A stretch of 64,000 nucleotides of DNA from a virus: IMG/VR virus record IMGVR_UViG_3300045988_060496, positions 114,625-178,624 of that record, one strand, 5' to 3'. Positions 6,847 through 64,000 of this stretch are shown in pieces. The notes below the pieces were generated by a model, which was not told where the DNA came from, searched no databases, and saw nothing but the letters and a program-made list of their open reading frames with translations. The position numbers were made by a program, and so were the translations under genes. Positions within the stretch are counted from its first letter, which is position 1; each line of letters starts with the position of its first letter.

Positions 6847-7315
6847 CTACAACATATTTTAAAATTTCGTAACTTTCTTCTAAGCCTGCTCTATCATCCA
6901 GTAAAATATTATAATAGGGCTTTTTAGAATTTGGGAATAGTCTACTACTTGTAAAGGGAGGTATGATCATATCATTGATAAGATTCCCTACCCTCATTTG
7001 AACACACTCCACTTGTTTCTCTATAATTTTATCTTCATCTTCTTCAGTGGAAAATAAAATCATTTCAAAACCTAGCATAGTACAATGTCTCAATAAGTTG
7101 ACGACACAACTATAGTCTCCTCCATTATTATGGTAGTCAAAAATAGTGTTATCATAATCGAAAGCGACTATTAGCTTTCCATATTTCTTGTACTCTTCTA
7201 ATAGTCGCTTCTTGCAAGCCTCTTTTCCAAATGGATGGTTAAAACTTTCCATAAAGCCCTTCATTAATCCGCTGTCTAATTTCTTTAAGAGTGTACTCCT
7301 TTTTAAGGACGCCAT
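6824..7315 (-). CDS. HAD-like hydrolase (possible); true start probably internal Met near 7264
   Basis: IVAFDYDNTI resembles HAD motif I DxDxT; 77-nt overlap with upstream gene suggests a later start. Confidence 0.35.
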   Translation of the reverse strand: MASLKRSTLLKKLDSGLMKGFMESFNHPFGKEACKKRLLEEYKKYGKLIVAFDYDNTIFDYHNNGGDYSCVVNLLRHCTMLGFEMILFSTEEDEDKIIEKQVECVQMRVGNLINDMIIPPFTSSRLFPNSKKPYYNILLDDRAGLEESYEILKYVVDEIIKLN

Positions 7316-8801: not shown

Positions 8802-8814
8802 TCTAAAAATTATT

Positions 8815-9339
8815 TTAATAACTAATTGTTAATAAACTTTTCATGCCTTTACCACTAGCTAAATTCTTAAAACACTGAGTGATAAATTCCTTCGTTTCTG
8901 GATGGATAGCCCTAGGAGAATTTATATACTTAATCCACCAGTTATATTCTCCTTGAAAACTATTACCATTGTATGCTTTGCCGGCAGCTAGATAATCGCA
9001 TACCAATTCCAGAGCATACTCTTTAGGCATCTTCACTGGAACGCCTCCAATGTCTAGCTTAGTTACCCAGTACTCGTAATGATGTGGATTTCTTCCTCTG
9101 TGATGTAAATAAGACCTAGAATATCCTAGAATTTCTTTTTCCTTGTTTAAGGGAGATGTGTTATCATCGTAAAATTTTACAGAACGAGAGAACTCATACC
9201 ATCCGAATTTAGATAAGTCGTGCAAGACACCCTGTTTGTATAGACCTAACTGAAAACAGTAATAAGCTACCCAAAACTTATGTCTAAGTATTCGCCTAAG
9301 GTGTTTCAGTGTTATACACATACATTTAAGAATTTCCAT
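8815..9339 (-). CDS. HD-domain-like protein (putative phosphohydrolase)
   Basis: VLHDLSKF (H..HD..K-like) followed by a His-rich LHHRGRNPHH segment. Confidence 0.35.
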   Translation of the reverse strand: MEILKCMCITLKHLRRILRHKFWVAYYCFQLGLYKQGVLHDLSKFGWYEFSRSVKFYDDNTSPLNKEKEILGYSRSYLHHRGRNPHHYEYWVTKLDIGGVPVKMPKEYALELVCDYLAAGKAYNGNSFQGEYNWWIKYINSPRAIHPETKEFITQCFKNLASGKGMKSLLTISY

Positions 9340-29477: not shown

Positions 29478-30390
29478 ATCTGACTCATAATTAGTTGCTC
29501 TGACCTGGCTGAGCTATAGGTCCGATTTAGTCTCACTATCGTAGGACTATAAGCTCCCAACGTCCGACTGGCTACGGAAGGTTATTTACCGGTCTAATAA
29601 CCTATTCTACTGTTAGTTCCTGTTCGCAGACATATTCAACTAGCAATTCATCATTACCAAATACCATAATCTGCAATACCACAATTTCCGGCCCATCCTT
29701 ACTTAGTCTTGGTCTACTAGAGAATGCGTATTCTGACATAGAAGACCTAGAATGAAACCTTACGAATTTACTTCTAGGATGAGACCTCTGGATTATTCCG
29801 CTACTGGGAGTATTTAGAGATACTTTACTAGTTATCTCCCCAATATTGAAAGAAGTTACGTTAAGCATAAGCACTTATTGATTGACATTTAAATATTATA
29901 GTTTTACCGATAATATCATCAGGCTTTATGTTAAACTTAGCAAACTCCTCAACCAGCTCATTCATATCTTCTACAGAATACGTTTCTCCAATAACTCTCA
30001 TATTATCTAGAGAAGTTTGGAAATTCTTTAGTAGTTCTGTAAGTAAACAGCTATTAATTATCACTTTCATTTTACTATGATTTGCTCTTCAGGTTTTAAC
30101 TTAGCTGGAGCATCAGAGTGTAATTTACCACATCTTACACACCAACAAACTCCAAATGAATTTTCTCTCACTTTACATCTGCCTTTCTCACAGATTTTAA
30201 CTACTTTTCTGTAATTCTCCTTATCCATAATTATATAATTTAGAAATACAGCCTTACTACCCCTATGTTCCTAGTTATTCTTTAGCTAGCTTTAGATTAT
30301 TACTAGGTAATACCGCAACGGATTTATTCAGCTGACTTTACCGCCTCTTGGTATGCAAGGCTAGGTCTCCCTAGCGAAGCTGTATTTAGT

Positions 30391-30460
30391 TGGGCTACCA
30401 GGACTCGAACCTGGACTCTCAGAACCAAAATCTGATGTGACTACCATTACACCATAGCCC
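30391..30460 (-). tRNA. tRNA-Gln(UUG)
   Basis: GGGCTATGGTGTAATGGTAGTCACA...; anticodon TCAGA-TTTTGGT-TCTGA; T-arm CCAGGTTCGAGTCCTGG. Confidence 0.75.
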
Positions 30461-30524
30461 AGTTTAACTTAACTATTCTCTCGAACCGTTAAGCCCATAT
30501 TTACCATGAAAAACACACAATGCG

Positions 30525-31010: not shown

Positions 31011-32984
31011 TTACTTCACTTCTTCAAACTCAGTTGTTTCAGCTTTCTTCTCCTCCAACTCTTTCTTGCCGAGAACACTTTTCAGTGTATCAGCGAAAGG
31101 TATAGAGCGAAGCAAGTCGAACGCAGGATTCAAGTTCTCAGCAGTTTTAGCCATGAAGTTACCAGCGGTATTCTCGTTACCATAAACAGTAACCTGTCCA
31201 AGGTGAACGTGTTCAAACATCTGAGCAGATGCTTCTGCAATACCTGTCAACTGGTCAACTGTCTTGTACTGAACCACCATTTCAGGAGTCAAGCCAGATT
31301 CAATCATCTTCTGGACTGCCAGAGCAGGAGCCATTTCAATAGCCTGGACTTTATCAGCCTCAGCCATCAAAGATGCTCTCTTACCCTCAGCTTCAGCAAG
31401 CAGTTTCTTTCTTGTACCTTCAGCTTCGGCTTCTAGCTGCAACTTTGTAGCATTCGCTTTAGCTTCTGCTTCTTTCAGAATTTCAGCAGCCTTAGCTTCT
31501 GCTTCAAGTACAGCTTTCTGCTTAACAGCTTCTGCCTCAATCGTAATACGTTCCTTTTCTTTTTGGGCAGGAACAATCGTCTCAGCATGAAGCTTAGCTT
31601 CCATAGCCAATGCAGCTGCTTCGTTTACTTCCAGTTGCTTTTCTTGCTTAGTTTTCTCGATAGTCATTTGAGCTTCTACCTTAGAAGTTCCTGCTACCTT
31701 TTCAGCTTCAGCCTTAGCTTTCTCGGCCTCTCCCTTAGCTTTAGAGACTTCAATTGTGGCATTTTGTTCTGCCACTCCTGCAATCTTATCAGCTTCAGCT
31801 GCCTTTACACGCTTGTCTGACTCATACTTAGCAACTGCAGCTTCCTGTTCGTTAATTGCCTTTTGCGTCTCAGCTTCCTGTTTTTGTTTAGCCTGAGCAA
31901 TACGAGTTTGTTTCTCTGCTTCTGCTTCTGCTTTCTTAGAGTCAGCTTCTGCTTTAGCCTTAGCTACATTAGCCTCAGCCAGTGATTCAGACTCTGCTCT
32001 GTTAGAATCGGCTTCTGCTTGAGCTTTAGCTATAGCTGAAATTTTCTCAGCTTCTGCTTTAGCTTTCTCTGATTCCGCTGCAGTATTAGCTTTAGCAATA
32101 TTGGCAGCTTGTTCAGCTTTCTGATTAGCAATACCTGATTGCTTATTCTTCTCAGCTTCTGCAAGTTTGATTTCCTTCTCCTGGTTAATCTCTGCCACAC
32201 GAACCTCTTGCTCTTGTCTAGTCTGAGCAACAGTAGTTTCACGCTCTTTCTCAGCGTCTGCTACAGCAATTTCACGTTGCTTGTTGGTTTCTGCAATCTG
32301 AATATCTCCTTTCTTTTTCTCTTCTGCAATGTCAGCCTGTGCCTGAGCAAGAGCTTTAGTTGCAGCTTTCTGACCTAGATTCTTGATATAGTTTGCATCA
32401 TCCGAAATATCGGCATTGTTAATGTTGATAATACTGAAACCTACCTTATTCAACTCGGTCTCAATATTCTCCTTAGCTTTGCCGATAAACTTGATTCTGT
32501 CAGCGTTAATTTCCTCAATCGTCATCGTAGCCATCAAGCTTCTCACTTCACCAATGAGAATATCCTTGATTTGGTCTGAGATTTCAGAAGTTTTAGCTGT
32601 TAAGAATCTACTTGCAGCGTTTTGCATTAATGTTTGAGTAGTTCCAATACCAGTGGTCAATGTTACAGGAATAGTTACCTTAATCATTTGACTGGAAACA
32701 CCAGTAACATTTACTTGAATTTGGATAGGTTTCAAGGACATTTTAGCCCAGTCTTGGATTACTGGCATTACGAATGTACCTCCACCATGAATGATTTTGG
32801 ACGGCAGAATAACTTCCTCCGACTTTCCAGTCTTCTCGTTAACTACCTTCTTCTTACCAGCCTTACCAAACACAACCAAGATTTCATCACTGGCACACTT
32901 ACGATACCGTGACAAAAGTCCAATAAAGGTTAAGACTACTAGCAATACAATAACACCTGCTACAATAAGAGTTTCTGTTGTCAT
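31011..32984 (-). CDS. flotillin-like protein (SPFH domain plus long Glu/Ala/Lys-rich coiled coil; YqiK/FloT-like)
   Basis: N-terminal TM, SDEILVVFGK...SPFH core, then ~350 aa of EA/KA repeats typical of flotillin C-termini. Confidence 0.6.
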   Translation of the reverse strand: MTTETLIVAGVIVLLVVLTFIGLLSRYRKCASDEILVVFGKAGKKKVVNEKTGKSEEVILPSKIIHGGGTFVMPVIQDWAKMSLKPIQIQVNVTGVSSQMIKVTIPVTLTTGIGTTQTLMQNAASRFLTAKTSEISDQIKDILIGEVRSLMATMTIEEINADRIKFIGKAKENIETELNKVGFSIININNADISDDANYIKNLGQKAATKALAQAQADIAEEKKKGDIQIAETNKQREIAVADAEKERETTVAQTRQEQEVRVAEINQEKEIKLAEAEKNKQSGIANQKAEQAANIAKANTAAESEKAKAEAEKISAIAKAQAEADSNRAESESLAEANVAKAKAEADSKKAEAEAEKQTRIAQAKQKQEAETQKAINEQEAAVAKYESDKRVKAAEADKIAGVAEQNATIEVSKAKGEAEKAKAEAEKVAGTSKVEAQMTIEKTKQEKQLEVNEAAALAMEAKLHAETIVPAQKEKERITIEAEAVKQKAVLEAEAKAAEILKEAEAKANATKLQLEAEAEGTRKKLLAEAEGKRASLMAEADKVQAIEMAPALAVQKMIESGLTPEMVVQYKTVDQLTGIAEASAQMFEHVHLGQVTVYGNENTAGNFMAKTAENLNPAFDLLRSIPFADTLKSVLGKKELEEKKAETTEFEEVK

Positions 32985-33002
32985 CTTTTAAAAATTCTTT
33001 TT

Positions 33003-34485: not shown

Positions 34486-34965
34486 TCAGCCAAATATACA
34501 AATCATTGAAGATATAAAGAATACAGCTCCTCCTACCACACTTGTCCAACCTCCAGCATCTTCATCGTTTTTGGATAGTTTTCCTCTACCAGTTAGTAGC
34601 ATAAATACTGATATTCCTAATAGTATGGTGCCTACTACAATTCCAGCTATCTCCTTATAGAGAAGTTTCCATACTACGATAGTTATTGCTGTTTGTCCCA
34701 AATTAGAGTCTGCTATTCTGATGGCGGAATCTTCAACTGCTTTAAGAGTTTCATTAACAGCCACGCCTATTTCCTTACCAAGGTTAGCATACTCAGAAAC
34801 TTCCTTGATTTCACCCTTTATAGCTTTCTCTGTTGTTATCTTCTCAATTTGAGTTCTAGTATCACTAGGCAACTTATCATAGTCTTCTTGTGATATAGTT
34901 ATCTGAGAAAAAGCTGCTACGCTCATCCAGAGCATAGCAAGCATAATTACAAGGAACTTTTTCAT
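34486..34965 (-). CDS. membrane protein with signal peptide
   Basis: MKKFLVIMLAMLWMSVAAFSQ plus C-terminal TM segments. Confidence 0.45.
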   Translation of the reverse strand: MKKFLVIMLAMLWMSVAAFSQITISQEDYDKLPSDTRTQIEKITTEKAIKGEIKEVSEYANLGKEIGVAVNETLKAVEDSAIRIADSNLGQTAITIVVWKLLYKEIAGIVVGTILLGISVFMLLTGRGKLSKNDEDAGGWTSVVGGAVFFISSMICIFG

Positions 34966-35525
34966 TAGTCAAGCCATTCAAATTCTTCACCCTTGAAATG
35001 TCTTGCAAAACAAGCATCGAACACTAGCTTTCCAAACTGGGTTGATACGTATTTGGCAATCTCTTCAGATTTGCACGCAAGCATCCCGACACTGGAATCG
35101 GCAAAGCCGACGCCAAAGTTAGAACTGAAACAGCCGAGACCCGCACAGCCGCCACTATTCGCGCGGCTGCCCACCAACGCGAATTTCTCGCCCTGATAAC
35201 GGAAGTGACCAATGACTTCTGCATCCTTCGGAACTGATTTCATTCTAAAGAAGCGAACCCAGGGATACCATATAGTACCAGTTAACAGATTGAACTTGTG
35301 ACCTTCATTTAGCGCATCCAAGACTGTCTGCAACTTAGCTAGAGAATTTACAGATCTATTGTAGTAAATAGTATCTCTAGTAACACACCCTAGATAGTTT
35401 ACAGCATCCTCATAGGTTCTTATCCGTCCCATAATGTTTTCTGGAACGATTTCAACATTGCCAGTTTCGGCATTATAGATGGGTTTATAACCATCTGGAC
35501 ATTCAATTTCAATTGTCTTTTTCAT
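34965..35525 (-). CDS. DGR target protein 2 (small protein with C-terminal variable repeat, probable C-type-lectin-like fold)
   Basis: C-terminal ...LVGSRANSGGCAGLGCFSSNFGVGFADSSVG is encoded by VR2 and is homologous to the C-terminus of the tail-fibre target at 60105..61922. Confidence 0.6.
   Translation of the reverse strand: MKKTIEIECPDGYKPIYNAETGNVEIVPENIMGRIRTYEDAVNYLGCVTRDTIYYNRSVNSLAKLQTVLDALNEGHKFNLLTGTIWYPWVRFFRMKSVPKDAEVIGHFRYQGEKFALVGSRANSGGCAGLGCFSSNFGVGFADSSVGMLACKSEEIAKYVSTQFGKLVFDACFARHFKGEEFEWLD
35085..35177 (-). repeat. DGR variable repeat VR2
   Basis: ~93 nt matching TR (62001-62098) in minus orientation with essentially all mismatches at TR adenines; locally GC-rich/A-depleted patch in an AT-rich genome. 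Confidence 0.65.
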
Positions 35526-35635: not shown

Positions 35636-36100
35636 TTATTCGAATAGCGGCAGCAACTTCTTTCCTAGTATCTTCACCGCTTTCTGTACATCAGCTACAG
35701 TTCTAAAATAAACAACACCTGGATATTTTACGTTTTGATGCATAACGACGTACACTCCTTTTATATCAGTTTCCGTCTTTCCAGATAGAGAAGAACCCCT
35801 TCCAAGAAAATAGCCAGTATTACCTTCTGTTTTGATCCATCCTTTATTTAGATAGTTAGCAACTATTTGTAAACTAGCTAGAGAACTGAGTTGTTCTGTC
35901 ATGCTTGGAGGACATACTAATGTATTCCAAAAACCATAATCTTCTTCAGACTCTACTATCTCTTTAAAGGAAGGAATTAGCATTTCCTCACTAAATGCAG
36001 TAAGAGCTAATTTCTTCAAGTCTTCATTACCGCTTTCATACCATTCGCGTGCCTGCTCTAAAGTTACCTCAAGATAGGCTTTTGTCTTAATTCTATTCAT
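35636..36100 (-). CDS. hypothetical protein
   Basis: 154-aa ORF. Confidence 0.45.
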   Translation of the reverse strand: MNRIKTKAYLEVTLEQAREWYESGNEDLKKLALTAFSEEMLIPSFKEIVESEEDYGFWNTLVCPPSMTEQLSSLASLQIVANYLNKGWIKTEGNTGYFLGRGSSLSGKTETDIKGVYVVMHQNVKYPGVVYFRTVADVQKAVKILGKKLLPLFE

Positions 36101-36588
36101 TTTTGTTTATTAGTTTTTAATGGACACCAATCCGGAATTAATACCCTTTCGTAAGGTCTTAACATTCCTTCAATTAGTTTATTCTCAGACTCCTTACAGA
36201 GCGCTTTCTCGTCGTCATCATTGAACCAGTCATTAGGATCTGGGTCAGGAACAATTAAGCAGTGCGGACATTCTCTACACTGCTTAATTTCTTTTTGAAA
36301 TACTACACTAGTACCAGATTTCTGGTAAGTATCCTTCTCCGTACTCATAATTTGTCATTTTGTAATTTCTTTAAATTCGTTTATAACTGTTTTTATAAAT
36401 GGTTTAATATCAAATAATAGTATTACAATAACAAATATAGTATTTATTACTGGTAATGCCATTATTGCGAGTCTTCTAACTGTAACAAATCGTTCATTTA
36501 CTGCCATATAAAGGCCAACTATGTACGTGCTTATTACGTATATAAATGCTGAATATACAAATATCATCATAATATATTGAAATTAGTG

Positions 36589-50116: not shown

Positions 50117-52480
50117 ATGCCAAGAAAAAAGATATTACCTGAAGAAATATAGAATATTGTAGATTAGGTAAGAGAAAAAGAATAGAAAGAGGATGCTAAA
50201 GAAGCTAGAGAATTAGTATAGAAAATAAGAGAGGAAAGGGTCAGAAATTCTGACTATTGGGATGTTAAAATAGGAGATAAAATAGAAGTATTTGACCCTA
50301 CCTTATCTTATGAAATAACTGGATACAGACCTATTGACGAAACTCATGGATTGGACTTTAATCCAGATTGGTTTACCGAGACTAGGGAAGTATATAAACG
50401 AACTGGTCAATACTGTCCCTACCTTAGAGATAGTAAGCGGTACAACGAATTTTGGAAAGAGCAATATAGAAGATGTAAGTATGGAATGACAGTTAATGGA
50501 TACACCATTACTGGAGATAATTACTTCTTCTTAAATTTCTATTAGTTACCTACTATTGACTAGCAGAAAGCCTCTGGTGAGGGTACTGATAATGACTTCC
50601 CAATATTCTTTGCATCACATTATATGTTCTTTCATTATCTATAGATGGCTAGAGTGCTACACAAGCACGCAGCTTTAATGAAAGCTCGTTCTATTGGATT
50701 CTCTGAAATAAACGCCTCTCTTTCTGCTCGTATGTACTCTGTTATTAGAAGAAGTAGGGTTATGATTACTTGCTTTAATGATACCTTCCTTAAGGGTACC
50801 TTTAGTAAGTTTGATAATGCTCTTACATTCTTAAATACCTGTACTGGAGGAGGATTTTTTAAATTGCGACTTATTGACCAGGATTTGAGAAAGAAATCAG
50901 GTAAACAAATCAAAATAAATGGTTAGTTTGAAGACGTAGGATTTAAATCTGAGGTTGTAGCAATTAACGGAGCTAAACCATCTAATATTCGTGGAGACCG
51001 TGTAGATTTATTAATATATGATGAAGCTGGTTCCTGGCCTGGACTTGATACCGCTGTGGTACAAGGTCAAGAACTTTGTGAAGTTCAAGGTATGCCTCGT
51101 GGAACAATGTTGTTTGGAGGTACTGGCGGTGATATGGGTGCTCCTCTAGAGGGCTTAAAAAAGATTTACTATAATCCAAGAGCATATAAGATTCTTCCAT
51201 TTAGACATAATTGGACTTAGGATGGGACTACTATAGAGAGTGGATTCTTTATTCCATACTTTATACAATCTTTGAATCCAGAATTTATGGACCACAGAGG
51301 AGTATGTAATACTGTGGAATATAAGAAATTCTTATAGGAGGAGCGAGATAATCTGTTAGCTGTACCAGAAGACTACCTAAAGAAATGCGCTGAACGTTGT
51401 TGGAATGCAGAAGAAGCATTTAATCTAGAAGGTGTTAATAAGTTTAATAAAATTTTAGTTGCCGAATAGATAGCTAATATAAGACTTAAACAAATTGGCC
51501 CAAGACCCGAATGTGGTTATATTGATTATTTTTACAAAAATAATAAACATACTTAGGATAATATTGATGGTTTTAAATGGATTCCTAACAGCAATGGCAA
51601 AGTAAAAATTCTAGAGCATCCAATATGGTCTGACTTATATAAAGAACAAATGGAAAAGCTTAGATAGGAGGCAGAAGATAATGGCTAGGATTTTGAAGTT
51701 CCAGTTTATAAAGAGATGCGAGACTTATACGTAGCAGGTATAGACGGTATTGATATTGGAGCGAATTAGACTTCTAAGGAAACCAGAGACCCGTCTGATT
51801 TCTGCATAACGATTAAGAAACGTGCGTTTGGTATGAATGACCCTCAGTATGTTGCTATGTACAAGGATAGACCTGGAGACATCAGAGAAGCCTATAAAAT
51901 AGCTATGTGTTTAGCTCGCTATTATAATTGTAAAATAAATATAGAAGCTACTCGTATGGGTATGGTTACTTGGGCTAGAGAAAAAGGATGCCTTAACTAT
52001 TTTATGAAGCGCCCAAGAGCTACTCTAACTGACGTTAGAAATGGAACTACTAAATAGTATGGAACTCCTGCTACAAAAACTATAATCGAATAGCATACTG
52101 ATTTAACAGCCGCCTTTATAGAAGACTATTGCCATACTATATGGTTCGAAGAAATGCTAGAATAGTTCACTGCATATAATGATGAAAATAAGGGTAAGTA
52201 TGATATTGTAGCCGCTGTAGGTATGACTGAGTTAGCAGACCAAGAGCTATCAGGAAGACAGCCCGTACTTGTGGAGAAAGAAGTTGAATAGTTCCAAGAT
52301 TTTGGTTACTATTACGACGAGAGAGGAATTAAAAGATTTGGAGTTATTCCAACTAAGAAAACTCCTGAACTTAATATGCAAAGAAACGAATATGATGACC
52401 CATACAGAGTTGAAACAAGTGATCCTAGAATATATGAGGGACTTGTACAAAATGGAGTATATAGGCGGACTAGATATTGA
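50117..52480 (+). CDS. terL: terminase large subunit, TAG-recoded (787 aa, ~20 in-frame TAG)
   Basis: Frame traced from ATG 50117 (TGA at 50096-98 upstream) through ORF-track fragments 50351.., 50645.., 51833.. to TGA 52478-80. Contains ...RGDRVDLLIYDEAGSWPGLD...MLFGGTGGDMGAP... nuclease/ATPase-like segments; size typical of TerL. Confidence 0.6.
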
Positions 52481-52671
52481 GAGTTTAGACCCAGTTGGGT
52501 ATAAAGTCTCTTTTAACTTTGATAGGTCAGAAATGCCATTAGTAATAATAGCAGATTTACCAGACGAAGAATTTCTGCCATTTATTAAGGAAGAATTAAG
52601 AAGTAGGAAGTTGCAAAGAGTTAAGTATTATAACGCTACTAAACTTCCTCCAGAACAACATAATTTATGTT

Positions 52672-54843
52672 ATGAAAGAGAAGGAATTAATAGACAAGAC
52701 AAACGAGGCTATTGCGGAACTTGTATATGATAAGTATGAGTTACAGAAAGCTTATAATTATTATAATGGTAAAAGAGATCCTGAATAGTTCCGTTATCTG
52801 GAAGAAAACTTCGGAATAGGTAGCCCCACTTCGGTAGAGTTTACGCCTTTATTAAAGAAACACGTAGATGCTCTAGTTGGAGAATATTTAGGAACTCCTA
52901 TACTTCCGAAAATTTCTTGCAAAGATTCAGATACTATCAGTAATATAACAAGAGAAAAATAGCTAGAAATAACCAAGGGAATAGTAAAGTTTTTGAAAGA
53001 CCATTTAAGTAATTCAATTCTTAAGTTTATTGATGGCAAGGATATTACTGATAAAGCTGTAAAGACTTAGTTAGATAAAATTATATAGGATATTGACCAA
53101 TCCTTTATTTCTCAATATGAAATTGCAGCTTAGAATATAGTACATTATATTATGCAATCCAGAGAAACCGATTTAATTACTAAGTTACGTTAGTTACTAA
53201 CAGACTTATTAATTACTGGTTATACATTCTTTAGAGTGAAATCATCGGCTTCTGGAACTAATATTGAAATAGAGGTATTAAACCCACTTAATACATTTGT
53301 TGATAGAAATCCAGAATCTCCATATGTAAGGAACTCATATAGAGTTGTAGTAAGAAAGTGGATGAGTAAGAGTTAGATTTTAGCTAAATATGGCAAAGAA
53401 ATATCTAGAGAAGATTTAAGAAGACTAAAAGATGAATGGCGAGCTGATGATTCAGCTGCTGTTTATAGAAGAGTATATGGAGATACTTGTACAGTAGTAA
53501 ATGAAGATTAGAATCATGAAACCATTCCCGGCTATCCAGACAATGAATATAGTGCTCATAGGTTCTAGTTAATCCCAGTCTATGATGTTGAATGGATTGA
53601 AACAGATGATGATTTTGTGATGTAGAGATACAATACTATCAGAATAGGAGAAGAGATATATATTCTTAGAGGATTAGACAAGACTGTTATGAGGTCTAAA
53701 GATAATCCCAACTTCTGTTCTTTATCGGTAAATGGAGTATATTTCTTAAATCGCTCTTAGTAGCCTTATTCTCTTATATTAAAATGTGCACATCTGTAGG
53801 ATAGATACGACTTATTAAACTATTATAGAGATAATCTAATAGCTAATAGTGGTACTGCTGGAGTTATTATGGATATGTCTCTGTTGCCTACCAACTTAGG
53901 AGTTAAATGGCCAGAACGAGTACAAAAATGGTTAGCTTATAAAAAAGGTGGTATCATGTGGATAGACTCAAGCCAAGAAGGTAGGAATGACGGACAGCAA
54001 GCTCCAAACTAGATATATAACGGATTTGATGATACCTTAAAAGCATAGGCTGTATAGGCTATTGAACTAGCTATTCAATCAGTAGAACAAACTACATCAT
54101 CAATAACTGGAGTATTTAGGGAACGACTTAACGGTATAGAAACTAGAGATGCAGTTACTAATATTAAGTAGGGAGTAGCTAACTCGTATATAGTAACTAA
54201 GCACTATTTTTAGCAGATGGATTTAATAACCTGCGAGATACTACTAGATAGTCTTAATTAGGCTAAAGTTACTTATAAGAAAGGATTAACTGGAACTATT
54301 ATACTTGGGGATAAATATCAACAGATATTCACCGCACTTCCTGAGTATTTTACTGTTACTGACTACGATATTCATATTACTGCTAGTTCAGAAGTGATGG
54401 AAGATTTATAGACTATAAAATCAATCATTCCAGAGTTCGTAAAAAGTCAACAGATGGATCCAGATATTATTTTTGAGGCTCTTACATCTAAGAGTCTGAC
54501 AGACCTTAAATATAAGGTTAAGAAAGCTGTTCAAGTTCGCAAAGAGGAAAATAATCAGCTTCAGCAACTACAAGAAAAATTAGAAGAAACCTCTCAATAG
54601 GCTTAGTAGTTACAGCAAGAATTATAGAAAGCTCAGCAAAAGATTGAAAGCTTAGATGAATAGAGACTGGGATTAGAATAGTAGAAGATGCAGTTAGAAT
54701 ATAAAGTTAACTGGCTTAAAGCTCAGTCTGATTCTACTTATAAAGATAGACAAATGGATATTGAAGAAAAAAGAACTGAAATAGAGTTGGCTTAGCTTCA
54801 TGATGGAAATCCATATAATGACAAAATAAGACAAATACATTAA
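52672..54843 (+). CDS. portal-like protein, TAG-recoded (723 aa)
   Basis: ATG 52672 MKEKELIDKTNEAIAELVYDKYELQKAYNYYNGKRDPE-Q-FRYLEENFG... open to TAA 54841-43 with >25 in-frame TAG; directly downstream of TerL; Gln-rich coiled coil near C-terminus. Confidence 0.45.
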
Positions 54844-56472: not shown

Positions 56473-58047
56473 ATGATACAGTCTATTTACACTTCGGTAA
56501 GTAACGCAGATATAGTGCCTTGTGGTAAAAAGGGTAAGCCTATAAAATGTGAGCCTATACCTCTCTTAAGAAATAACTATTTAGGAGAATATAGGACAGA
56601 ACTAGAAAAAGCTAAAGTAAGAAAGAACTTAGGTATTGCTGATGAGTAGAGTCTATTGTGGGGAAACATTAGTGGAACCATAGAACTGCAAAAAGACCTA
56701 GTATAGTATATAGAACAAAAATGGACCTATACTAGTGACGTTGCAGAAGGCATTAATACTGTGAAGGATGCCCTAGACTATGCCCTATACTTTATTAGCG
56801 AATATGAATCTAATACAGAAGCAATAGAAGAACTGAAAGTCGATATAAGCAATATTAGAACTTCTATATCTGTATTGAAGGAGGATTTACAGCGAGAAAT
56901 TGATACTAATAGAAAAGGAATTAATAATCTATCTGAAGAAATAGTAAAAATCAATGAAGCTATAGTTGAGTTGAACAATGCTATTGAGAATATAGATGTT
57001 GATAAAAACATTCTTAATTGGATTAAGAATAGTCTCCAAAATTCCAAAACTATAGAACTAAAGGAAAATAATTCCTTAGAGGTGATTTTATCTACTTAGG
57101 AAGATAATGCTATTCATTTAATAGAATAGGAGATTGGAGAGGAAACCTCTTCTATTATCCTTCCAGGTATCTATGTTAAGAATCTTGAACCTGCTCTAGA
57201 AGAAACAAAGAAAGAAGTATAGAAAACTTAGGAAGCACAACAAGAGACAAATACTAAAGTAGAAGCTAATACTGAAAGTATTACTAATATACAAACTAAC
57301 TTAGAAACTATAGCTACTTATTAGACGGAACTCCCAGATGATACTACTTCAACAGTAATTGAAGGGACTACAGTAGAGAAACTTAAGGGCAAGCCCTTTA
57401 ATGAAATTATTGATACTTTACTGTTTCCAACAGTAGTTAGAGATTTAGTATACCCATAGCTTTATTATAGTTTTACTTCTCAAATAGTAGAAGTGGGAAC
57501 TGCTTTATTAACTCCTGCACTTACATTTATAAAGAATGATGCTGGAGAAGAAACTGACAGACGAGAAACTATTACTTATAACAGTTCTCCTGTAGAGTCT
57601 GATACATATAATTCTATTGGTACTTATACTCACTCTGGTACAGTGAGTTATGCCGCTGGAGAATATTTGATAAATAATAAAGGAGAAGTTACAGATAAGA
57701 GAGTAGAAGCTGGTTCTATTTCCGCTACCGCTTAGGTAGTAGCCACATATCCTTGGTATTCTGGTAATACTGATGGTGTGATTAAATAGGCGCTAGTTCC
57801 TTTTGGACAATCGTCTGGAACTATCACATTTTCACTAAGTGGTAAGGCTATTATAAAATTGCCAGGAAGTAACACATAGTTAAATTCATTTACCGTAGAT
57901 GGAGGACTTGGATATTTAAATGTAGACCTAAGTGGTTGGGAAACGTCTACCGAGTAGATAAATGGATTTACTTACAAGGTATGGACTAAGAAAGATACTT
58001 ACTCCTCAGCATTGCCACATCAAATTAACTTTATTCTATCACAATAA
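56473..58047 (+). CDS. tail-fibre/tail-associated structural protein, TAG-recoded (524 aa)
   Basis: MIQSIYTSVSNADIVPCGKKGKPIKCEP... includes track ORFs 56761.. and 57493..; coiled-coil segment then beta-rich C-terminus; TAA 58045-47 overlapping next ATG. Confidence 0.45.
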
Positions 58048-59885
58048 TGGCATTTAAATATACAGGTGATGCTACCTTAGGTGTCGCTTTAACCGTAGAA
58101 ACTCCGAAGCCTCTCGATAATAGAACAGTCGTTAATAACTTAGACGAACTTTATTCTATTCCAGAGAAGTATGCTTATCAAGGTATGACCGTTGCTAACA
58201 TAGATAACGGAAATATTTATATGCTGATTGATAAGTCTAAGATTAAATACAAGGAAGGATGGAAAGCATCCTATGAATCTATCTAGATAATCACCTGTAC
58301 AGAGGCTGAATATAAAGAATGGTCTGAGAATACTACAGACGATTTTAGGCCCATAGATGAAAGTAAACCATATCTTCATGCTGAGACATATTATTATATA
58401 TATGAGGATAGCTTAGACGATAACTAGTTTTACCTATCCGCGGAATGGGGGAAAAAGATAGAAGAGCAATTAAAATAGAAGGCTCTTAATACTACTGTAG
58501 TATAGATTAGAACAGACTTAGATAACACTATTGCTAGCCTATCAGATTATGCTACACTGGAAGAATTAACTACTAATTATGTCTCTAACGATTCTTTAGC
58601 TCTATCACTGACTAAGTATTATACTAAGGAAGAAACAAACGATATTTTCGTTACTAAAGAAAGCCTTAGAGGAGAGGGAATGGAAGGAGATGATTTTGTC
58701 TTCGTTACAAAGAAAGAATATGAGGAAGATTAGTAGGCTATCCAAGACGAGTTAGATAAAACTCTTAAGGTAGATGGAGATGGCTCCTTAGAAAGCATCA
58801 CTGTTGGGTAGATAAAATCTCCTGTGGCGGAGGGAGAGAGCTAGTTAGTAGTAGACGTTAAGTCTGAAGGATTATTTATAGGTGAAGATTAGATTGCTAC
58901 TGAATCGGATATTCCGAACTTAGTAACATTAACTGAAGAAGAGTATCTAAAGTTAGTAGAGGAAGGGACGGTAGAGCCTGATACATATTACTATGTATAT
59001 GACGTTACAAATGATGCAAAGGTTTATATTACTAAGGAATATTTGGATTAGAATTATCATACTACTAATCAATATCAGTCCTGGGTTGCTACAAATTATT
59101 ACTCCAAGAAGTAGATTGATGAAATAGTTCAAGGTTTGCAAAAACTTGGAAACTACGTTACTACAGAAGATATTAAGGCTTATTATACTATTTAGCAGGT
59201 TGATGACAAATTTCTTACTAAGGAAAATGCTCAGTCTACTTATGCTACTCAATAGTCATTATCTAATTTATCAGATTAGATAGCCGAAGATTACGTAACA
59301 AAAGAAAGTTTAAGGGGAGACTCTCCTGAAACCGGAGATGATGATTTCATATTTGTTACCTAGAAAAAATATCAGGATGATTAGGCTGCTGCTGCTAAAG
59401 AATTTAGCACTGAGCTTTTGAAATCTACATCAGTAGAAACTTCTGATATTACTATTTAGAAAATTGGAGAAAAAGAAGTACAATAGGGAACAACTGGAGA
59501 ACCTTCTGAGGAAACAGGAACTGAGCAAGTTATTGAGAGTTCTGTTAAACTTACCACAGAAGATAACAGGCTATTTGCTGGAGGCAAGCAAGTTGCTATT
59601 ACTGAAGAAGTACCAAAACTTGTATGCTTACCACAAGCTGATTATGATGACCTAGTTGAGAATAGTAAGACTGAAGAAGATACTTATTATTGCACCTATG
59701 GAGAAAAAGATTTACAAGATACTGGATATGTTAGAAGCGAATATCTTATAGAGAGATACTACACCAAAGCTGAGGTAGAAGAACTAATTAGCTAGGCCGT
59801 AGCCGAATTGTAGAAAAAGATAGACGCTTTATAGCCAGGTTCTAGTGTAGAGGTAGATGGAGAAAATGAACAATTAATATTTTAA
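58047..59885 (+). CDS. tail-fibre-like protein with internal repeats, TAG-recoded (612 aa)
   Basis: Repeated modules TKESLRGEGMEGDDFVFVTKKEYEED-QQ-A... and TKESLRGDSPETGDDDFIFVT-Q-KKYQDD-Q-AAA...; TAA 59883-85. Confidence 0.45.
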
Positions 59886-59890
59886 ACAAT

Positions 59891-60103
59891 ATGGGAACAA
59901 TTTATATTGAAGGACAGTTTAAGAGTTCTGCCAAACCAGTAAAAGTTGTTGGAGGAAGTATAGGAGGAGGCTCTGGAGTAGACTAGGAAGTTCTCAAGAA
60001 CTATGCTACTAAAGCAGAATTGTAGAAGGCTGTTGAGGACCTAACTGCTTCCATAGAGGGAATAGATCACGATGTAGTTGGTGAAACTTTAATAATACAA
60101 TGA
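59891..60103 (+). CDS. TAG-recoded small protein (70 aa)
   Basis: MGTIYIEGQFKSSAKPVKVVGGSIGGGSGVD-Q-EVLKNYATKAEL-Q-KAVEDL..., TGA 60101-03. Confidence 0.35.
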
Positions 60104-60104
60104 T

Positions 60105-61922
60105 ATGGCAGCAATCAAATCTATAAAGGTTGGGGAAACCACATACGATTTAAAAGCTACTTACGATGGTGCTGGAAATGTTATAGATACGACATATGCC
60201 AAAGCTAATGCAATTCCAACTAAAACTTCTTAGTTACAGAATGATAGTGGATATTTGACTGAGCATTAGGATATTAGTGAATTAGCTACTAAGGGTGAGC
60301 TTGAAGGCAAAGTAGATAAGGAGTTAGGAAAGGGACTTTCTGAAGCCAATTATACTGAAACTGAGAAGGAAAAGTTAAGTACTATAGCTAATAATGCTAA
60401 TAATTATGTACACCCAACTACTTCTGGAAATAAACATATTCCATCTGGAGGAGCGTCTGGATAGATGCTAGTTTTCTCAGCAGATGGTACTGCTGAATGG
60501 GCAGATTCAAGTTCTAAGCTAGAAGAGCAATTTACAGCACTAAATGAGGCTTGGGAAGAATTGTAGAAGGCACAACAAAAGCTTGATAAGTAGGTTACTG
60601 AGCTAAATAGTAATATGGATTTATATTCCTATGGAGTAGAATGGGATGTTACAGTAGCATCTCCGGAACTTACTAGAATAGGTAATCCTTTGTTGCATAA
60701 ATCTCTTCCTATTCAGTCAGCGTATAGAGGTTGTGTAGCAAACAATGATGTAGTAAATTACTATCTGTTTCCAGATGACTGGTCTTATAAAGAAGACGGC
60801 GAAACTCCATCTGTCTTAGATGGAACTGATGGAACAGTAAGAGTTAATACTCCTAAATTTTATGGAAAATCTGGCAGCGATGGAAACAAAAGATGGGTTA
60901 GAACTTCTACTGTCAAAATTGATGATTCATGGGTAGAAATTCCTGAACTATTAATAGATGCATACAGAAGTACAGTTGATACCACAGTCTCCGCAACTCC
61001 AAAAGCTGTATCAGTAGTTAATACTACTACTGCATTTAGAGGTGGAGGAAATAGAGCTAACTACGATGATTATCTAACTACAGAATTAGAAACTAAGGAT
61101 ATATTCAGAAGTGATTTAGGAAAGCCTAGAACTAATATTTCTAGAGCTACTATGAGAACATATGCAACAAATGCTGGTTCAGAATTGCTATGCTATGAAT
61201 ATTACAAATGGATATTCTACTGGAATTATGTCATTGAATATGCTAATTTTAATTCTTAGGCTGCATATAATGCAGAGTTAACTGCAGATAGATATCATCA
61301 AGGAGGTTTAGGATCTGGAGTTACAGATTGGGCTAACGCAGCTACAAGTTGGTCAGGGTATAATGCAACATATCCACTTACACCTTGTGGTTACTGCAAT
61401 GAACTTGGTAACTTCACTGGAGTAAAAGATTTAGTTATTCCAGAATGTACAGCTCAAGATGGCACAAATACAGTAGCAACTCATACATTTAAAGTACCTC
61501 GCTGGAGAGGATTCGATAATCCGTTTGGAGACATTTGGACTAACCTGGACGGAGTAGTTATAATGAGAGCAGCTGCTAATGAGATTAGCACTGTCTATAC
61601 AACTACTAACATATCGGAATTTACAGACGTAGTTGGAGAGAAAACCGTTGCAGGATACGAAGTAGCATCGGATGGTTATATTAAGGCATTTGACTTAGGT
61701 GAAACCGCTGAAATAATTCCATCCGCTGTTGGAGGAAGTGCTACTACTTATATTTGCGATTACCATTACTGCAACGCAAGCAGCACAGCGCTTCGCACGC
61801 TGCTGGTGGGCAGCGGCGCGGCTTATGGCGGCGATGCGGGTCTCGGCTGTTTCTATTCTTACTATGGCGTCGGCAATGCCGATTCCGTTGTCGGGTTCAG
61901 GACTCTGAATAGAGTATCTTAA
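60105..61922 (+). CDS. DGR target 1: tail-fibre/receptor-binding protein with C-terminal variable repeat (605 aa, TAG-recoded)
   Basis: Frame 0 from ATG 60105 through track ORFs 60615.. and 61563.. to TAA 61920-22; C-terminus ...ICDYHYCNASSTALRTLLVGSGAAYGGDAGLGCFYSYYGVGNADSVVGFRTLNRVS is encoded by VR1. Confidence 0.6.
61800..61897 (+). repeat. DGR variable repeat VR1
   Basis: 98 nt aligning with TR; every VR/TR mismatch (about 20) falls on a TR adenine; GC-rich patch. Confidence 0.7.
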
Positions 61923-62000
61923 GATATACAATATAAAAATCGATTTAGATGATAAATCGTAGGATATTACTTCTAAAAACCGTTGATTGGCAAAAAAGTA

Positions 62001-62098
62001 CTGCTAGTAGGCAGCAACGCGAATAATGGCAGCAATGCAGGTCTCAGCTATTTCAATTCTAACAATGACGTCAGCAATGCCAATTCCAATGTCGAGTT
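62001..62098 (+). repeat. DGR template repeat TR
   Basis: A-rich intergenic copy ctgctAgtAggcagcAAcgcgAAtAAtggcAgcAAtgcAggtctcAgctAtttcAAttctAAcAAtgAcgtcAgcAAtgccAAttccAAtgtcgAgtt between target gene and RT. Confidence 0.7.
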
Positions 62099-62239
62099 AT
62101 TATATATTTAGAAACATTTTATTATTTTTTTTTAGTTTGCTAAGTAATATCCTTGCCTCTAGGCAAAAGATAACGTAGTGTTGAATGAAGGGTGTTAGTA
62201 GGTTAATTCTCGAACGCTTCCGATGAAATATATAAAAAA

Positions 62240-63514
62240 TTGAAACGTGTAGGATATTTGCACGAGAAAGTATACGCTGAAGATAACATCGAACTAGCTG
62301 ACGATAAAGCTAGAAGAAATAAGTCTATTAGATGTGGAATCAAGCAGCATGATAAGAATAGATTAAAAGAAAATAAGGAATTATCCGATAAGTTAAGGGA
62401 TTTGATTTATCAAACCTCTGAATATAGTACCTTTATAATATACGAACCTAAAGAAAGATTAATCTTTAGACTTCCATACTATCCAGATAGAATAACTCAC
62501 CATGCTATAATGAATATTATGGAGCCTATTTGGACTAGTATATTTATAGACCAAACATATTCCTCTATACGAAATAGAGGTATTCATAAAGTAGAGTATG
62601 ATTTGTTCAAGGTGTTATAGAAACATCCAGAAGAAACAAAGTATTGCTTGAAAATGGATATAAAAAAATTCTATCCTTCTATAACTCACGACATTTTATA
62701 CGAAATGTTATAGAGAAAGATAAAGGATAAAAAACTATTAAAACTGTTGAAAGAAATAATTTATTCAGCGAAGGGAGTTCCTATTGGAAATTATCTATCA
62801 CAATTCTTTGCAAATTTATATCTGACATATTTTGACCACTGGGTAAAAGAGGAGTTAAAATGTAAGTACTACTTTCGATATGCTGACGATATTGTGATTC
62901 TTGGTAATGACAAGAATTATTTGAGAAATGTATTAGTATCTATAAAACTATATTTGAAACAGGTTCTTAACCTAGAGTTGAAGCCTAATTATCAAATATT
63001 CCCTGTAGAAAGCAGAGGTATTGATTTCGTAGGCTATAAATTCTATCATACTCATGTTCTACTGAGAAAATCTATAAAAATGAGGATGTTTAGGCTTATA
63101 AATCTATATAAATAGAATAAGATTGATAAAGATGAATTGAATAGAAGAATGAGGTCTTATTTTGGATAGATGAAATTTTGCAACTCTAAGAACTTGCTGA
63201 GAAAGGTAGAGGAGTTAACTGGATTGAAATTCTCTAACTGGAATGGAAAAGAAGTTAACATATCTAAGTTTTATAATAAATATATTCACATTGTAGAGGT
63301 TATTGATTATGACAATCATTTTCGAGTGCATTTCATGTATAACAATAAACCCTACTATTTTAAAAGTAAGAATAGGAGATTACACTATTCTTTGCTTAGA
63401 TACAAATTTCCTATAAATTTTAAAATAACACCTTATGTTAGAGCCGAATAGAATACAAATGGACGTTTATCCTTAGACAATCCAAAAACTTGGGAACGGT
63501 ACTTATTACTATAA
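62240..63514 (+). CDS. DGR reverse transcriptase, TAG-recoded (track ORFs 62240.., 62747.., 63170.. are one frame joined by TAG codons)
   Basis: YADDIVILG (RT YxDD box), RLPYYPDRITHHAIMN, IGNYLSQFFANLYL; all three track ORFs are in the same frame (offsets 507 and 930 nt); ends TAA 63512-14. The only in-frame start candidate found was TTG at 62240, so the 5' end is uncertain. Confidence 0.65.
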
Positions 63515-64000
63515 CTATGATATAAAAGAAATTAGTGTTGAAGTACTTGATTTAGACAATACCATAAAAGAAAAAACTTACTATAGTTTTATCTAGGTAT
63601 TATTAAATGGACAGCCTAATTACAAAGATTGTGTAAAAGCTATAGTTAGAAGATTCCTTACAGTCGATGAAGAATTTGATTTAATCAATTCATATAATAG
63701 CTATTCAGAAAATCTTACTTCTGATTCTGAAGTTATTAATGAATATAAGGAATATCTTAACATATTAAAATAGATAAAAGCTAAAGTCAAGGAAGATTTT
63801 GCTAAATTATGATATATAGAAATGGTAAGTTAATATTACAGGTCCAAAAAGATATTCTAGAACTTGTAGAACAAGTTTAGCAAAGAGTACAAAAGAACAT
63901 TGGAGCTATATATAAAGGGTCGTAGTTAGTCTGGCTTACCGTATACGATGCTGTTAGAAGCTGTTTTGGTAGCGGAACTTGGCTACAAGACAGACCTTGG

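What the first reader, a model, noticed from the sequence alone, without database searches (positions are those of the whole stretch)
61800..63514. Complete diversity-generating retroelement (VR-TR-RT) with adenine-specific VR/TR mismatches, itself written in the recoded TAG code
The last ~98 nt of the tail-fibre/RBP gene (VR1, 61800-61897) are repeated 100 bp downstream in the intergenic space (TR, 62001-62098). The two copies differ at about 20 positions. At every one of these the TR has an A while the VR has G, C or T, which is the signature of DGR mutagenic retrohoming. A reverse transcriptase (YADDIVILG box) follows at 62240..63514. That RT is split into three ORF-track fragments only because it contains in-frame TAGs, so DGR activity would depend on the amber suppressor. 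The VR-encoded C-terminus (GxxxGLGCFxSxxGVGNADSVVG) suggests a C-type-lectin-fold binding domain, though I could not verify this.
Basis: seen in the sequence. Interest (0 to 1): 0.9.

Follow-up and report, generated by a model that had tools for sequence, protein, structure and literature searches.

The report
Two-target DGR in a recoded phage
A gut phage that reads TAG as an amino acid carries a real diversity-generating retroelement; this cassette type is already published for the phage group, but it also rewrites a small uncharacterised protein 27 kb away, which I did not find reported.

Summary
VR1 (61800-61897) and TR (62001-62098) differ at 21 of 98 positions, and all 21 are TR adenines (chance about 1e-14). 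A DGR-type reverse transcriptase (62240-63514, GxxxSQ motif) follows, with five in-frame TAGs. Related genomes show ongoing activity: 26 genomes have 26 different VR1s against a nearly constant TR.

The headline is not new. A 2025 paper on zeta crAss-like phages reports DGRs in 18 of 43 genomes, amber codons in seven RT genes, and no Avd in most.

My additions:
- The same TR has a second target, VR2 (35085-35176, minus strand), inside a 186-aa TAG-free gene in the non-structural block. VR2 is also hypervariable, and it copies rare non-adenine TR polymorphisms.
- The pairing of tail fibre plus this small-protein family recurs in Bacteroides phages Versailles and LoVEphage.
- A confident model of the small protein (pLDDT 90) matches no solved structure, so no C-type lectin fold was detected.
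- One RT TAG in this genome replaces an invariant Trp.
- TR adenines followed by G are almost always G in the VRs.

The downstream ORF is not Avd-like. Verdict: a genuine, ordinary DGR cassette with an unreported second target.

The parts
60105..61922 (+). Target gene 1: tail-fibre / receptor-binding protein, 605 aa, six in-frame TAGs, none inside the VR
   Evidence: phrog_5302 tail protein 6e-82. TAG positions. The C-terminal domain is homologous to the DGR-target fibres of crAssphage LMMB and phage Versailles.
61800..61897 (+). VR1, the variable repeat, encoding the last ~33 variable-region residues of the fibre
   Evidence: 21/21 mismatches to the TR at TR adenines. 26 distinct versions in 26 related genomes, varying at TR-A positions.
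61889..61897 (+). IMH-like 3' boundary, TGTCGGGTT (TR has TGTCGAGTT)
   Evidence: The G at TR position 95 is fixed in all VR1 and VR2 copies, while the TR keeps A. Assigning this as an IMH is inference by analogy with BPP-1.
61902..61915 (+). Candidate hairpin after VR1 (ACTCT-GAAT-AGAGT)
   Evidence: The stem is invariant in relatives while the loop varies. Folding energy is not better than shuffles, z = -0.8. Weak evidence.
62001..62098 (+). TR, the template repeat: non-coding, 30 adenines, mostly in AAY codons when read in the target frame
   Evidence: Identical in 18 of 26 related genomes. No stop codon is reachable by adenine substitution; about 9e15 possible peptides.
62132..62239 (+). 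Conserved TR-to-RT spacer, including an RT-17-like RNA element (62149-62237) with the hairpin CCTTGCC/GGCAAGG-like
   Evidence: Nearly invariant in relatives, while the AT-rich stretch after the TR is variable. The core is conserved in the LMMB and Versailles cassettes, with one compensatory pair. Rfam RT-17: 28.7 bits against gathering 40.4, E = 0.011, full-length match.
62240..63514 (+). DGR reverse transcriptase, 424 aa, TTG start, five in-frame TAGs, YADD box, IGNYLSQ (GxxxSQ) motif, basic ~85-aa C-terminal extension
   Evidence: The TTG start aligns with the annotated ATG start of the LMMB RT.
63167..63169 (+). Private TAG at RT codon 310, where all relatives have TGG (Trp)
   Evidence: Alignment of 22 RTs. 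Sequence checked.
34965..35525 (-). Target gene 2: 186-aa protein of unknown function (phrog_11581 family), no in-frame TAG, in the non-structural minus-strand block
   Evidence: 230 family representatives at 50% clustering. No Pfam or NCBIfam hit. AF2 model pLDDT 90.2.
35085..35176 (-). VR2, the second variable repeat (pairs with TR 62005-62096), residues 117-148, followed by 39 more codons
   Evidence: 21/21 mismatches at TR adenines, P = 5e-14. 36 distinct versions among 37 genomes. Copies non-A TR polymorphisms.
41733..41803 (-). tRNA with anticodon CTA (amber suppressor 1)
   Evidence: ARAGORN. Its amino-acid identity is unclear.
44175..44247 (+). tRNA with anticodon CTA (amber suppressor 2), most similar to the phage's own tRNA-Gln
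   Evidence: 71% identity to tRNA-Gln(TTG) at 30389-30461. Q is the commonest residue aligned to TAG columns in RT homologues.

Best explanation
This is a diversity-generating retroelement of a TAG-recoded, probably zeta-type crAss-like gut phage. It has one template and two targets.

Inferred from the BPP-1 paradigm: the TR and its conserved downstream spacer are transcribed. The RT can be completed only once the phage's amber-suppressor tRNA (probably inserting Gln) is available. The RT copies the TR RNA into cDNA and misreads template adenines. The cDNA then replaces the homologous VR, with crossover near the TGTCGGG boundary.

Shown here: information flows from the TR to two places. One is the C-terminal tip of the tail fibre (VR1, a late gene with TAG codons). 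The other is residues 117-148 of a small protein of unknown function encoded 27 kb away on the other strand, in the TAG-free non-structural block (VR2). The AAY-codon design of the TR randomises about 11 residues without ever creating a stop codon.

No Avd is encoded next to the cassette. The basic C-terminal extension of the RT or an unrecognised factor may substitute for it (speculation).

The lineage's element is clearly active. Whether this particular genome's RT is fully active is uncertain because of a private TGG>TAG change at an invariant Trp.

Function: VR1 most likely changes receptor specificity (inferred). VR2 diversifies a binding surface on a non-structural, probably early-expressed protein. 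My best guess is a host-directed or counter-defence binder, at low confidence.
For: - Adenine-only mismatches for both VRs, with P about 1e-14 and 5e-14.
- RT homology and the GxxxSQ motif. The nearest relatives are the RTs of crAss-like phage DGR cassettes.
- Population evidence for VR1: 26 of 26 distinct, and 552 of 578 VR-versus-own-TR differences lie at adenines.
- Population evidence for VR2: 36 of 37 distinct, and 799 of 843 differences lie at adenines, while the rest of the protein is nearly invariant.
- Rare non-adenine TR polymorphisms are mirrored in both VR1 and VR2 of the same genome in three genomes, 9 of 9 positions.
- There are exactly three copies of the adenine-masked pattern per near-complete genome.
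- The same dual targeting occurs in Versailles (11 and 14 mismatches, all at A) and LoVEphage (19 mismatches, all at A, plus the fibre VR).
- Recoding: ORF restoration, suppressor tRNAs, and Q at TAG columns.
- Conserved spacer with an RT-17-like match, in the same position as RT-10 in BPP-1.
- No stop codon is reachable from the TR.
Against: - No Avd was detected. The prototype BPP-1 system requires Avd (established knowledge).
- RT codon 310 is TAG where an invariant Trp is expected. With Gln insertion this gives W310Q in the thumb region, which could impair this copy.
- The IMH is very short, and the hairpins after the VRs are not thermodynamically significant.
- No read-level data were available, so diversification within this population is inferred from differences between assembled genomes.
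- Early expression and an intracellular role for the VR2 target are inferred only from gene position, strand and the absence of TAG codons.
Confidence: 0.88

Rival explanations
1. The cassette in this particular genome is a recently disabled relic. The VR/TR pattern records past activity of the lineage, but the RT here no longer works because codon 310 (an invariant Trp) has become TAG.
For: TGG>TAG is private to this window among 22 aligned RTs, including relatives 98% identical. The residue lies in the conserved thumb segment SYFGWMKF. The published epsilon crAss-like group contains many fragmented or lost RT genes.
Against: In a TAG-reading phage the codon is translated, so the protein stays full length. 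The TR keeps all 30 adenines, and the spacer and both VR boundaries are intact. The change could also be an assembly or sequencing variant. W>Q may be tolerated.
Confidence: 0.2
2. VR2 is not a DGR target. It resembles VR1 and the TR because of an old domain transfer or gene conversion between the tail-fibre gene and the small gene.
For: The two proteins share only the 32-35 residue VR segment, as a transferred module would.
Against: VR2 differs from the TR only at adenines. It differs in 36 of 37 genomes at those same positions while its flanks are nearly invariant. It tracks non-adenine TR polymorphisms genome by genome. In Versailles and LoVEphage the family member matches that phage's own, quite different, TR. 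Gene conversion from VR1 would copy VR1's substitutions, which VR2 does not share.
Confidence: 0.02
3. The RT belongs to another retroelement class (group II intron, retron, or a defence-associated or abortive-infection RT), and the nearby repeat is a coincidence.
For: The best NCBIfam hits are group II intron RT (113 bits), retron St85 RT (67 bits) and Drt3a (60 bits).
Against: All of these are far below their curated cut-offs of 300, 235 and 200 bits. The RT has the DGR-typical GxxxSQ motif. Its closest homologues sit in tail fibre-TR-RT cassettes. The adenine-specific repeat has a chance probability of about 1e-14. No intron or retron RNA family was found by Rfam in 61000-64000.
Confidence: 0.01

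Closest known systems
[quoted passage not shown]
   Same: Tail fibre-TR-RT order. RT with GxxxSQ. Amber codons inside the RT gene (reported for seven RT genes). No Avd in most genomes. Genomes of 176-189 kb, about 35% GC, many tRNAs and a CTA suppressor. This window and its IMG/VR relatives (about 185-190 kb, 35.5% GC) fit that description.
   Different: The paper describes one fibre target per TR, apart from the three TR-VR pairs of Lera and ct1yV3. Its text contains no mention of a second or remote target. Here one TR serves a fibre VR and a remote VR in a small non-structural gene. I could not compare sequences directly with the named genomes, so membership of that group is probable but not shown.
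crAssphage LMMB DGR (Intestiviridae; Viruses 2020, PMC7290462)
   Same: Same gene order (tail-collar fibre, gap with TR, RT, small ORF). RT 56% identical over 94% of its length. Homologous fibre C-terminal domain. Conserved spacer core and a sub-threshold RT-17 match.
   Different: LMMB uses the standard code. The small ORFs downstream of the two RTs are unrelated. I did not look for a second target in LMMB.
Bordetella phage BPP-1 DGR (prototype)
   Same: Adenine-specific TR-to-VR transfer into the C-terminus of a tail-fibre protein. AAY codon design. A structured RNA between TR and RT (RT-10 motif in BPP-1). Unmutated boundary positions.
   Different: BPP-1 has Avd between VR and TR, a long GC-rich IMH and a strong hairpin, a single target and the standard code (established knowledge). 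Here there is no Avd, a 9-nt IMH-like boundary, weak hairpins, two targets and a TAG-recoded RT.
Two-target phage DGRs: Bacuni phages of B. uniformis (PMC8143477) and tentaclin-encoding myoviruses (PMC10743442)
   Same: One TR diversifies two genes. In Bacuni phages one target lies far from the RT.
   Different: In those systems both targets are predicted C-type-lectin adhesin or receptor-binding proteins (DUF1566/Fib_succ_major, tentaclin, DUF6273). Here the second target is a 186-aa protein with no Pfam domain and no detectable C-lectin similarity. It lies among non-structural genes, and its VR is followed by a 39-residue C-terminal segment (helices and a short strand in the model).
Bacteroides phages Versailles (ON453897) and LoVEphage (OY731433)
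   Same: Each has a fibre-TR-RT cassette plus a remote VR in a homologue (30-33% identity) of the small protein. That homologue sits among replication, recombination or DNA-modification genes.
   Different: Unrelated phage backbones (58 and 71 kb; LoVEphage is temperate), the standard code, and different TR sequences. The second target is not mentioned in the LoVEphage paper. No paper combining Versailles with DGR was found.

Membership tests
Diversity-generating retroelement (DGR) | Reverse transcriptase of the DGR clade (RVT_1 domain, YxDD box, GxxxSQ motif in domain 4) | tested here: met
   RVT_1 1e-19. phrog_1423 2.8e-112. YADD and IGNYLSQ are present in the translation. The nearest homologues are RTs of crAss-like DGR cassettes. 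No DGR-specific curated model exists in NCBIfam, and hits to other RT classes fall far below their cut-offs.
Diversity-generating retroelement (DGR) | TR/VR repeat pair whose differences are confined to TR adenines | tested here: met
   VR1 21/21 and VR2 21/21. P = 1.1e-14 and 5e-14.
Diversity-generating retroelement (DGR) | Ongoing diversification: VR hypervariable at TR-adenine positions while TR is conserved | tested here: met
   Between-genome comparison only. VR1 entropy is 1.27 bits at A sites against 0.07 at non-A sites, and VR2 is 1.32 against 0.12. The TR is identical in 18 of 26 genomes. Non-A TR changes are copied into both VRs. Read-level heterogeneity was not testable.
Diversity-generating retroelement (DGR) | Adenines placed in AAY codons, so that no stop codon can arise | tested here: met
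   11 AAY codons in the target frame. Enumerating all adenine substitutions gives no stop codon.
Diversity-generating retroelement (DGR) | IMH at the 3' end of the VR, differing from IMH* in the TR, plus a downstream hairpin | tested here: inconclusive
   Both VRs end in TGTCGGG where the TR has TGTCGAG, fixed in all genomes. Small hairpins with GAAN loops follow both VRs, but the z-scores are -0.8 and -0.1.
Diversity-generating retroelement (DGR) | Accessory protein Avd (small, basic, four-helix bundle) next to the TR or RT | tested here: not met
   [quoted passage not shown] The ORF after the RT has no Avd or other Pfam hit, has pI 4.7, and belongs to phrog_11557 of unknown function. Only the cassette neighbourhood was tested. 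Avd is also reported absent from most zeta crAss-like DGRs, so this does not exclude membership.
Diversity-generating retroelement (DGR) | VR displayed on a C-type lectin fold | tested here: inconclusive
TAG-recoded phage (TAG read as sense, code-15-like) | Long ORFs restored only when TAG is read through, a suppressor tRNA(CTA) is encoded, and recoding is confined to one gene block | tested here: met
   Plus-strand ORF coverage rises from 20% to 56%. Terminase has 19 and portal 28 in-frame TAGs. The large minus-strand genes have none. There are two tRNA(CTA) genes. Gln is the likely amino acid: one suppressor is closest to tRNA-Gln, and Q is the commonest residue at aligned TAG columns.
Zeta crAss-like phages (proposed Echekviridae) | Phylogenetic placement by terminase or whole proteome with the named zeta genomes | tested here: inconclusive
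   The terminase is only 27-29% identical to classified crAss-like phages and 43-44% to unannotated 'Bacteriophage sp.' records. The named zeta genomes were not available for direct comparison.
Rfam RT-17 RNA (RF03020) | Score at or above the family's gathering threshold (40.4 bits) | tested here: not met
   28.7 bits, E = 0.011, full-length match at 62149-62237. LMMB scores 30.5 bits. The first hairpin and the conserved loops are shared, while the second stem is weak. I call it RT-17-like and not a member.

The most novel reading that the evidence does not exclude
The phrog_11581-type small protein is a previously unrecognised class of DGR variable protein. It would be a stand-alone, non-virion scaffold of about 190 aa with no detectable C-type lectin fold. 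It is encoded among early or replication genes and is kept as a second, remote target alongside the tail fibre in at least three unrelated Bacteroidales phage lineages. If so, phages would use DGRs to evolve a binder that acts inside the infected cell or on the host (counter-defence, host takeover or superinfection control), and not only to retarget adsorption. The largest DGR survey could not see remote targets. A side possibility is that these RTs have a context rule, with template A followed by G read as G about 95% of the time.
Probability: 0.35. Interest if true: 0.75.

Novelty: new member of a known kind. Interest (0 to 1): 0.45.

Why it matters
The cassette itself adds little. DGRs in crAss-like phages have been known since 2020, and amber-coded DGR RTs in zeta crAss-like phages since 2025.

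What may matter is the second target. Surveys that require the VR to lie next to the RT miss remote targets, as Roux et al. 2021 state. The view that phage DGRs serve only host-range switching through C-type-lectin tail tips rests partly on that blind spot.

Here one template rewrites both a late, TAG-coded virion protein and a TAG-free protein in the non-structural block. The same pairing occurs in three phage lineages that infect, or probably infect, Bacteroidales. That gives a concrete, testable candidate for a diversified non-structural phage protein.

The recoding also implies an order of events worth testing. The RT can be made only after the suppressor tRNA is expressed, so mutagenesis would be confined to the late phase.

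Tried and rejected
- Megablast of 57000-64000 against GenBank phages found nothing, so lineage had to be inferred from proteins.
- Avd: the ORF after the RT was rejected as Avd-like. I did not scan every small ORF of the window.
- First structure prediction of the VR2 target, using 40 close homologues, gave pLDDT 47 and was discarded. Two homologue searches were flooded by hypervariable near-identical clones. The diverse alignment from the representative library gave the usable model.
- Profile searches of both target families against PDB sequences found nothing meaningful. Pfam and NCBIfam gave nothing for the VR2 family.
- Whole TR-spacer RNA folding is not more stable than shuffles, z = +1.5. 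Hairpins after the VRs are not significant.
- A third VR was looked for and not found.
- One search counted the wrong alignment column (an indexing error of mine). One search is the corrected count.
- Rejected readings: chance or a simple duplication as the origin of the repeat, a group II intron, retron or defence RT, and gene conversion as the source of VR2 (see the rivals).
Full report

**2. The genes and the code.** Under the standard code the plus strand is almost ORF-free (20% coverage). Reading TAG through raises coverage to 56% and restores a terminase (50099-52480, 19 TAGs), a portal (52600-54843, 28 TAGs) and the tail genes. The minus-strand block (1 to about 43 kb) holds TAG-free genes: a helicase, an ATPase, a nicotinamide phosphoribosyltransferase and 21 tRNAs. 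Two tRNAs with anticodon CTA sit at the junction of the two blocks. One is most similar to the phage's own tRNA-Gln, and Q is the commonest residue aligned to TAG columns in RT homologues.

The target ORF is a tail protein (phrog_5302, 6e-82). The ORF 62240-63514 is a reverse transcriptase (RVT_1 1e-19; phrog_1423 2.8e-112) with YADD and the DGR-typical IGNYLSQ motif. Its TTG start aligns with the annotated ATG of the crAssphage LMMB RT. It contains five in-frame TAGs. Scores against group II intron, retron and Drt models are far below their cut-offs.

**3. A second target.** I scanned the whole window with the TR while ignoring its adenines. This gave one further match, on the minus strand at 35085-35176, with 64 of 68 non-A positions identical over the full 98-nt TR length. 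Within TR 62005-62096 there are 21 differences, again all at TR adenines (P = 5e-14). This VR2 encodes residues 117-148 of a 186-aa ORF (34965-35525, minus strand) with no TAG, 27 kb from the TR, and 39 more codons follow it. VR1 and VR2 carry different substitutions, so neither is a copy of the other. BLASTP and profile-profile comparison show that the two target proteins share only the VR segment.

**4. Evidence of activity from related genomes.** The RT has 565 relatives in IMG/VR, many on contigs of 183-193 kb. In 26 genomes with an alignable cassette, the TR is identical in 18 and keeps all 30 adenines in 23. All 26 VR1 sequences differ. 552 of 578 differences between a VR1 and its own TR lie at adenines. 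Entropy is 1.27 bits at adenine positions against 0.07 elsewhere.

The VR2 gene occurs in 36 related contigs. 36 of 37 VR2 sequences are distinct, and 799 of 843 differences lie at adenines. At the protein level the variability is confined to the AAY-encoded residues of an otherwise nearly invariant protein.

The rare non-adenine polymorphisms of the TR give the most direct evidence. T>C at position 8 in contig 059915, and four C>T changes in contigs 061465 and 065173, appear in both the VR1 and the VR2 of the same genome. That is 9 of 9 positions in three genomes. In a fourth genome only VR1 follows the TR. Information therefore flows from the TR to both VRs. A masked-pattern scan of IMG/VR finds exactly three copies per near-complete genome (VR1, TR, VR2), so there is no third target.

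**5. What is already known.** The RT's nearest annotated relatives (48-60% identity) are RTs of crAss-like phages. CrAssphage LMMB, the first crAss-like DGR (PMC7290462), has the same order: fibre, gap, RT, small ORF.

[quoted passage not shown] Its table lists amber-recoded, CTA-suppressor, DGR-positive genomes of 176-189 kb and about 35% GC. It is the only paper in the library that combines DGRs with stop-codon recoding.

The window fits this group, but I could not place it phylogenetically. Its terminase is 27-29% identical to classified crAss-like phages and 43-44% to unannotated records.

**6. The second target compared with the literature.** The zeta paper does not mention second or remote targets. 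Two-target phage DGRs are known:
- Bacuni phages have one remote and one adjacent target, both DUF1566/Fib_succ_major.
- Tentaclin phages have both targets in the cassette, both C-lectin.

Roux et al. 2021 state that their survey could not detect remote targets, and that annotated VR regions were systematically C-lectin.

In GenBank phages the family occurs only in Bacteroides phage Versailles and in LoVEphage.
- In Versailles a 108-nt TR between the tail protein and the RT matches the tail-protein 3' end (11 mismatches) and the family member (14 mismatches), all at adenines. The family member lies among NinB and replisome-organizer genes.
- In LoVEphage a 113-nt TR upstream of the RT matches the fibre 3' end and the family member 15 kb away (19 mismatches, all at A).
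- The LoVEphage paper notes only the fibre-RT pair, and no paper linking Versailles to DGRs was found.

The fibre plus small-protein pairing is therefore recurrent and, as far as I could search, undescribed. The ORF next to the VR2 gene (35636-36106) looks like a partial paralogue of the family's N-terminal half without a VR (hhalign probability 85.5%).

**7. Other anatomy.**
- No Avd. There is no ORF between VR1, the TR and the RT. The ORF after the RT (63460-63812) has no Avd hit, is acidic (pI 4.7) and is unrelated to the ORF at the same place in LMMB.
- The last ~85 residues of the RT lie beyond the PHROG RT profile and are basic (pI 9.9 for the last 96 residues).
- The ~105 nt before the RT start are almost invariant in relatives, whereas the AT-rich stretch after the TR is variable. 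The core, with a hairpin showing one compensatory GC>AU change, is conserved in LMMB and Versailles.
- That spacer gives a full-length but sub-threshold match to Rfam RT-17 (28.7 against 40.4 bits). [quoted passage not shown]
- Both VRs end in TGTCGGG where the TR has TGTCGAGTT. I read this as a short IMH/IMH* distinction. The hairpins that follow are not statistically supported.

**8. Two oddities.**

(a) RT codon 310 (63167-63169) is TAG in this window, but TGG (Trp) in all 21 other RTs aligned, including the relatives 98% identical. The other four TAGs are shared with close relatives, and the ~70%-identity clade has no TAG in its RT. This copy may be impaired (W310Q if Gln is inserted).

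(b) The fate of a TR adenine depends on the next base.
- Adenines followed by G are G in 96% of 392 VR observations.
- The first A of AAY codons gives A 23%, G 35%, C 11%, T 32%.
- The diverged TRs of the ~70% clade behave the same way: 95% G in 214 observations.
- Selection for scaffold glycines (AGC>GGC) explains most of these sites, and boundary effects explain the terminal ones.
- Two internal synonymous sites show the same bias: GCA|G here (47 G, 2 A) and GGA|G in the other clade (11 G, 2 A).
- I have no tested explanation. A context-dependent misincorporation by the RT is one possibility.

**9. Verdict.** The finding is a genuine DGR, active at the lineage level. As a kind of system it is already described for this phage group, so the flagged cassette is a new member of a known kind. 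The extra value lies in the remote second target, its recurrence in three phage lineages, and its unassigned fold.

Noticed in passing
window 63167-63169: RT codon 310 is TAG in this genome, but TGG (Trp) in all 21 related RTs aligned, including those 98% identical. It is a private nonsense or recoded change at an invariant thumb residue.
   Followed up: partly
window 62001-62098 (TR) against VR1/VR2 in the window and loci L001-L116: TR adenines followed by G are G in about 95% of VR copies, including synonymous third-codon sites, while AAY adenines are randomised. The pattern is the same in the diverged ~70% RT clade. It is not explained by protein-level selection alone.
   Followed up: partly
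window 35636-36106 (-): The ORF immediately upstream of the VR2 target, separated from it by tRNA-His, resembles the N-terminal half of the VR2-target family (hhalign probability 85.5%) but has no VR. It is a possible non-diversified paralogue.
   Followed up: partly
L118:2863-3444 and L119:2624-2731 (phage Versailles); L120:19869-20453 and 35809-35921 (LoVEphage): Both published Bacteroides phages have an apparently unreported remote DGR target of the same small-protein family, besides the tail-fibre target. In Versailles the gene is annotated 'tail protein', probably only because of the shared VR segment.
   Followed up: yes
window 41733-41803 (-) and 44175-44247 (+): Two different tRNA(CTA) genes flank the switch between the TAG-free and TAG-containing gene blocks. 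Only the second resembles tRNA-Gln (71%), and the origin of the first is unclear.
   Followed up: partly
window 15591-38358 (-): 21 tRNA genes are interspersed with TAG-free genes on the minus strand, including two tRNA-Tyr and two tRNA-Met.
   Followed up: no
window 58029-59885 (+): The 612-aa late protein upstream of the DGR target contains internal direct repeats about 600-650 nt apart (for example DDFVFVTKKEYEEDQ and DDFIFVTQKKYQDDQ). This suggests a duplicated domain in a fibre-like protein. It has no PHROG match.
   Followed up: no
window 7239-8828 (-) and 31011-32987 (-): The first is an auxiliary gene for nicotinamide phosphoribosyltransferase (phrog_448, 4.5e-182). The second is a 657-aa protein with an N-terminal hydrophobic segment and a long Ala/Glu/Lys-rich repetitive region (translated). 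The second was not included in any family search.
   Followed up: no
L002:5762-5859 and L079:5762-5859: In two related contigs the TR itself carries VR-like substitutions at several adenines: 5' end in L002, 3' half in L079. These are either chimeric assembly between TR and VR reads or real TR damage.
   Followed up: no
window 61914-61925: A perfect 12-nt palindrome, TATCTTAAGATA, spans the stop codon of the tail-fibre gene just after the candidate hairpin. It is conserved in relatives.
   Followed up: no
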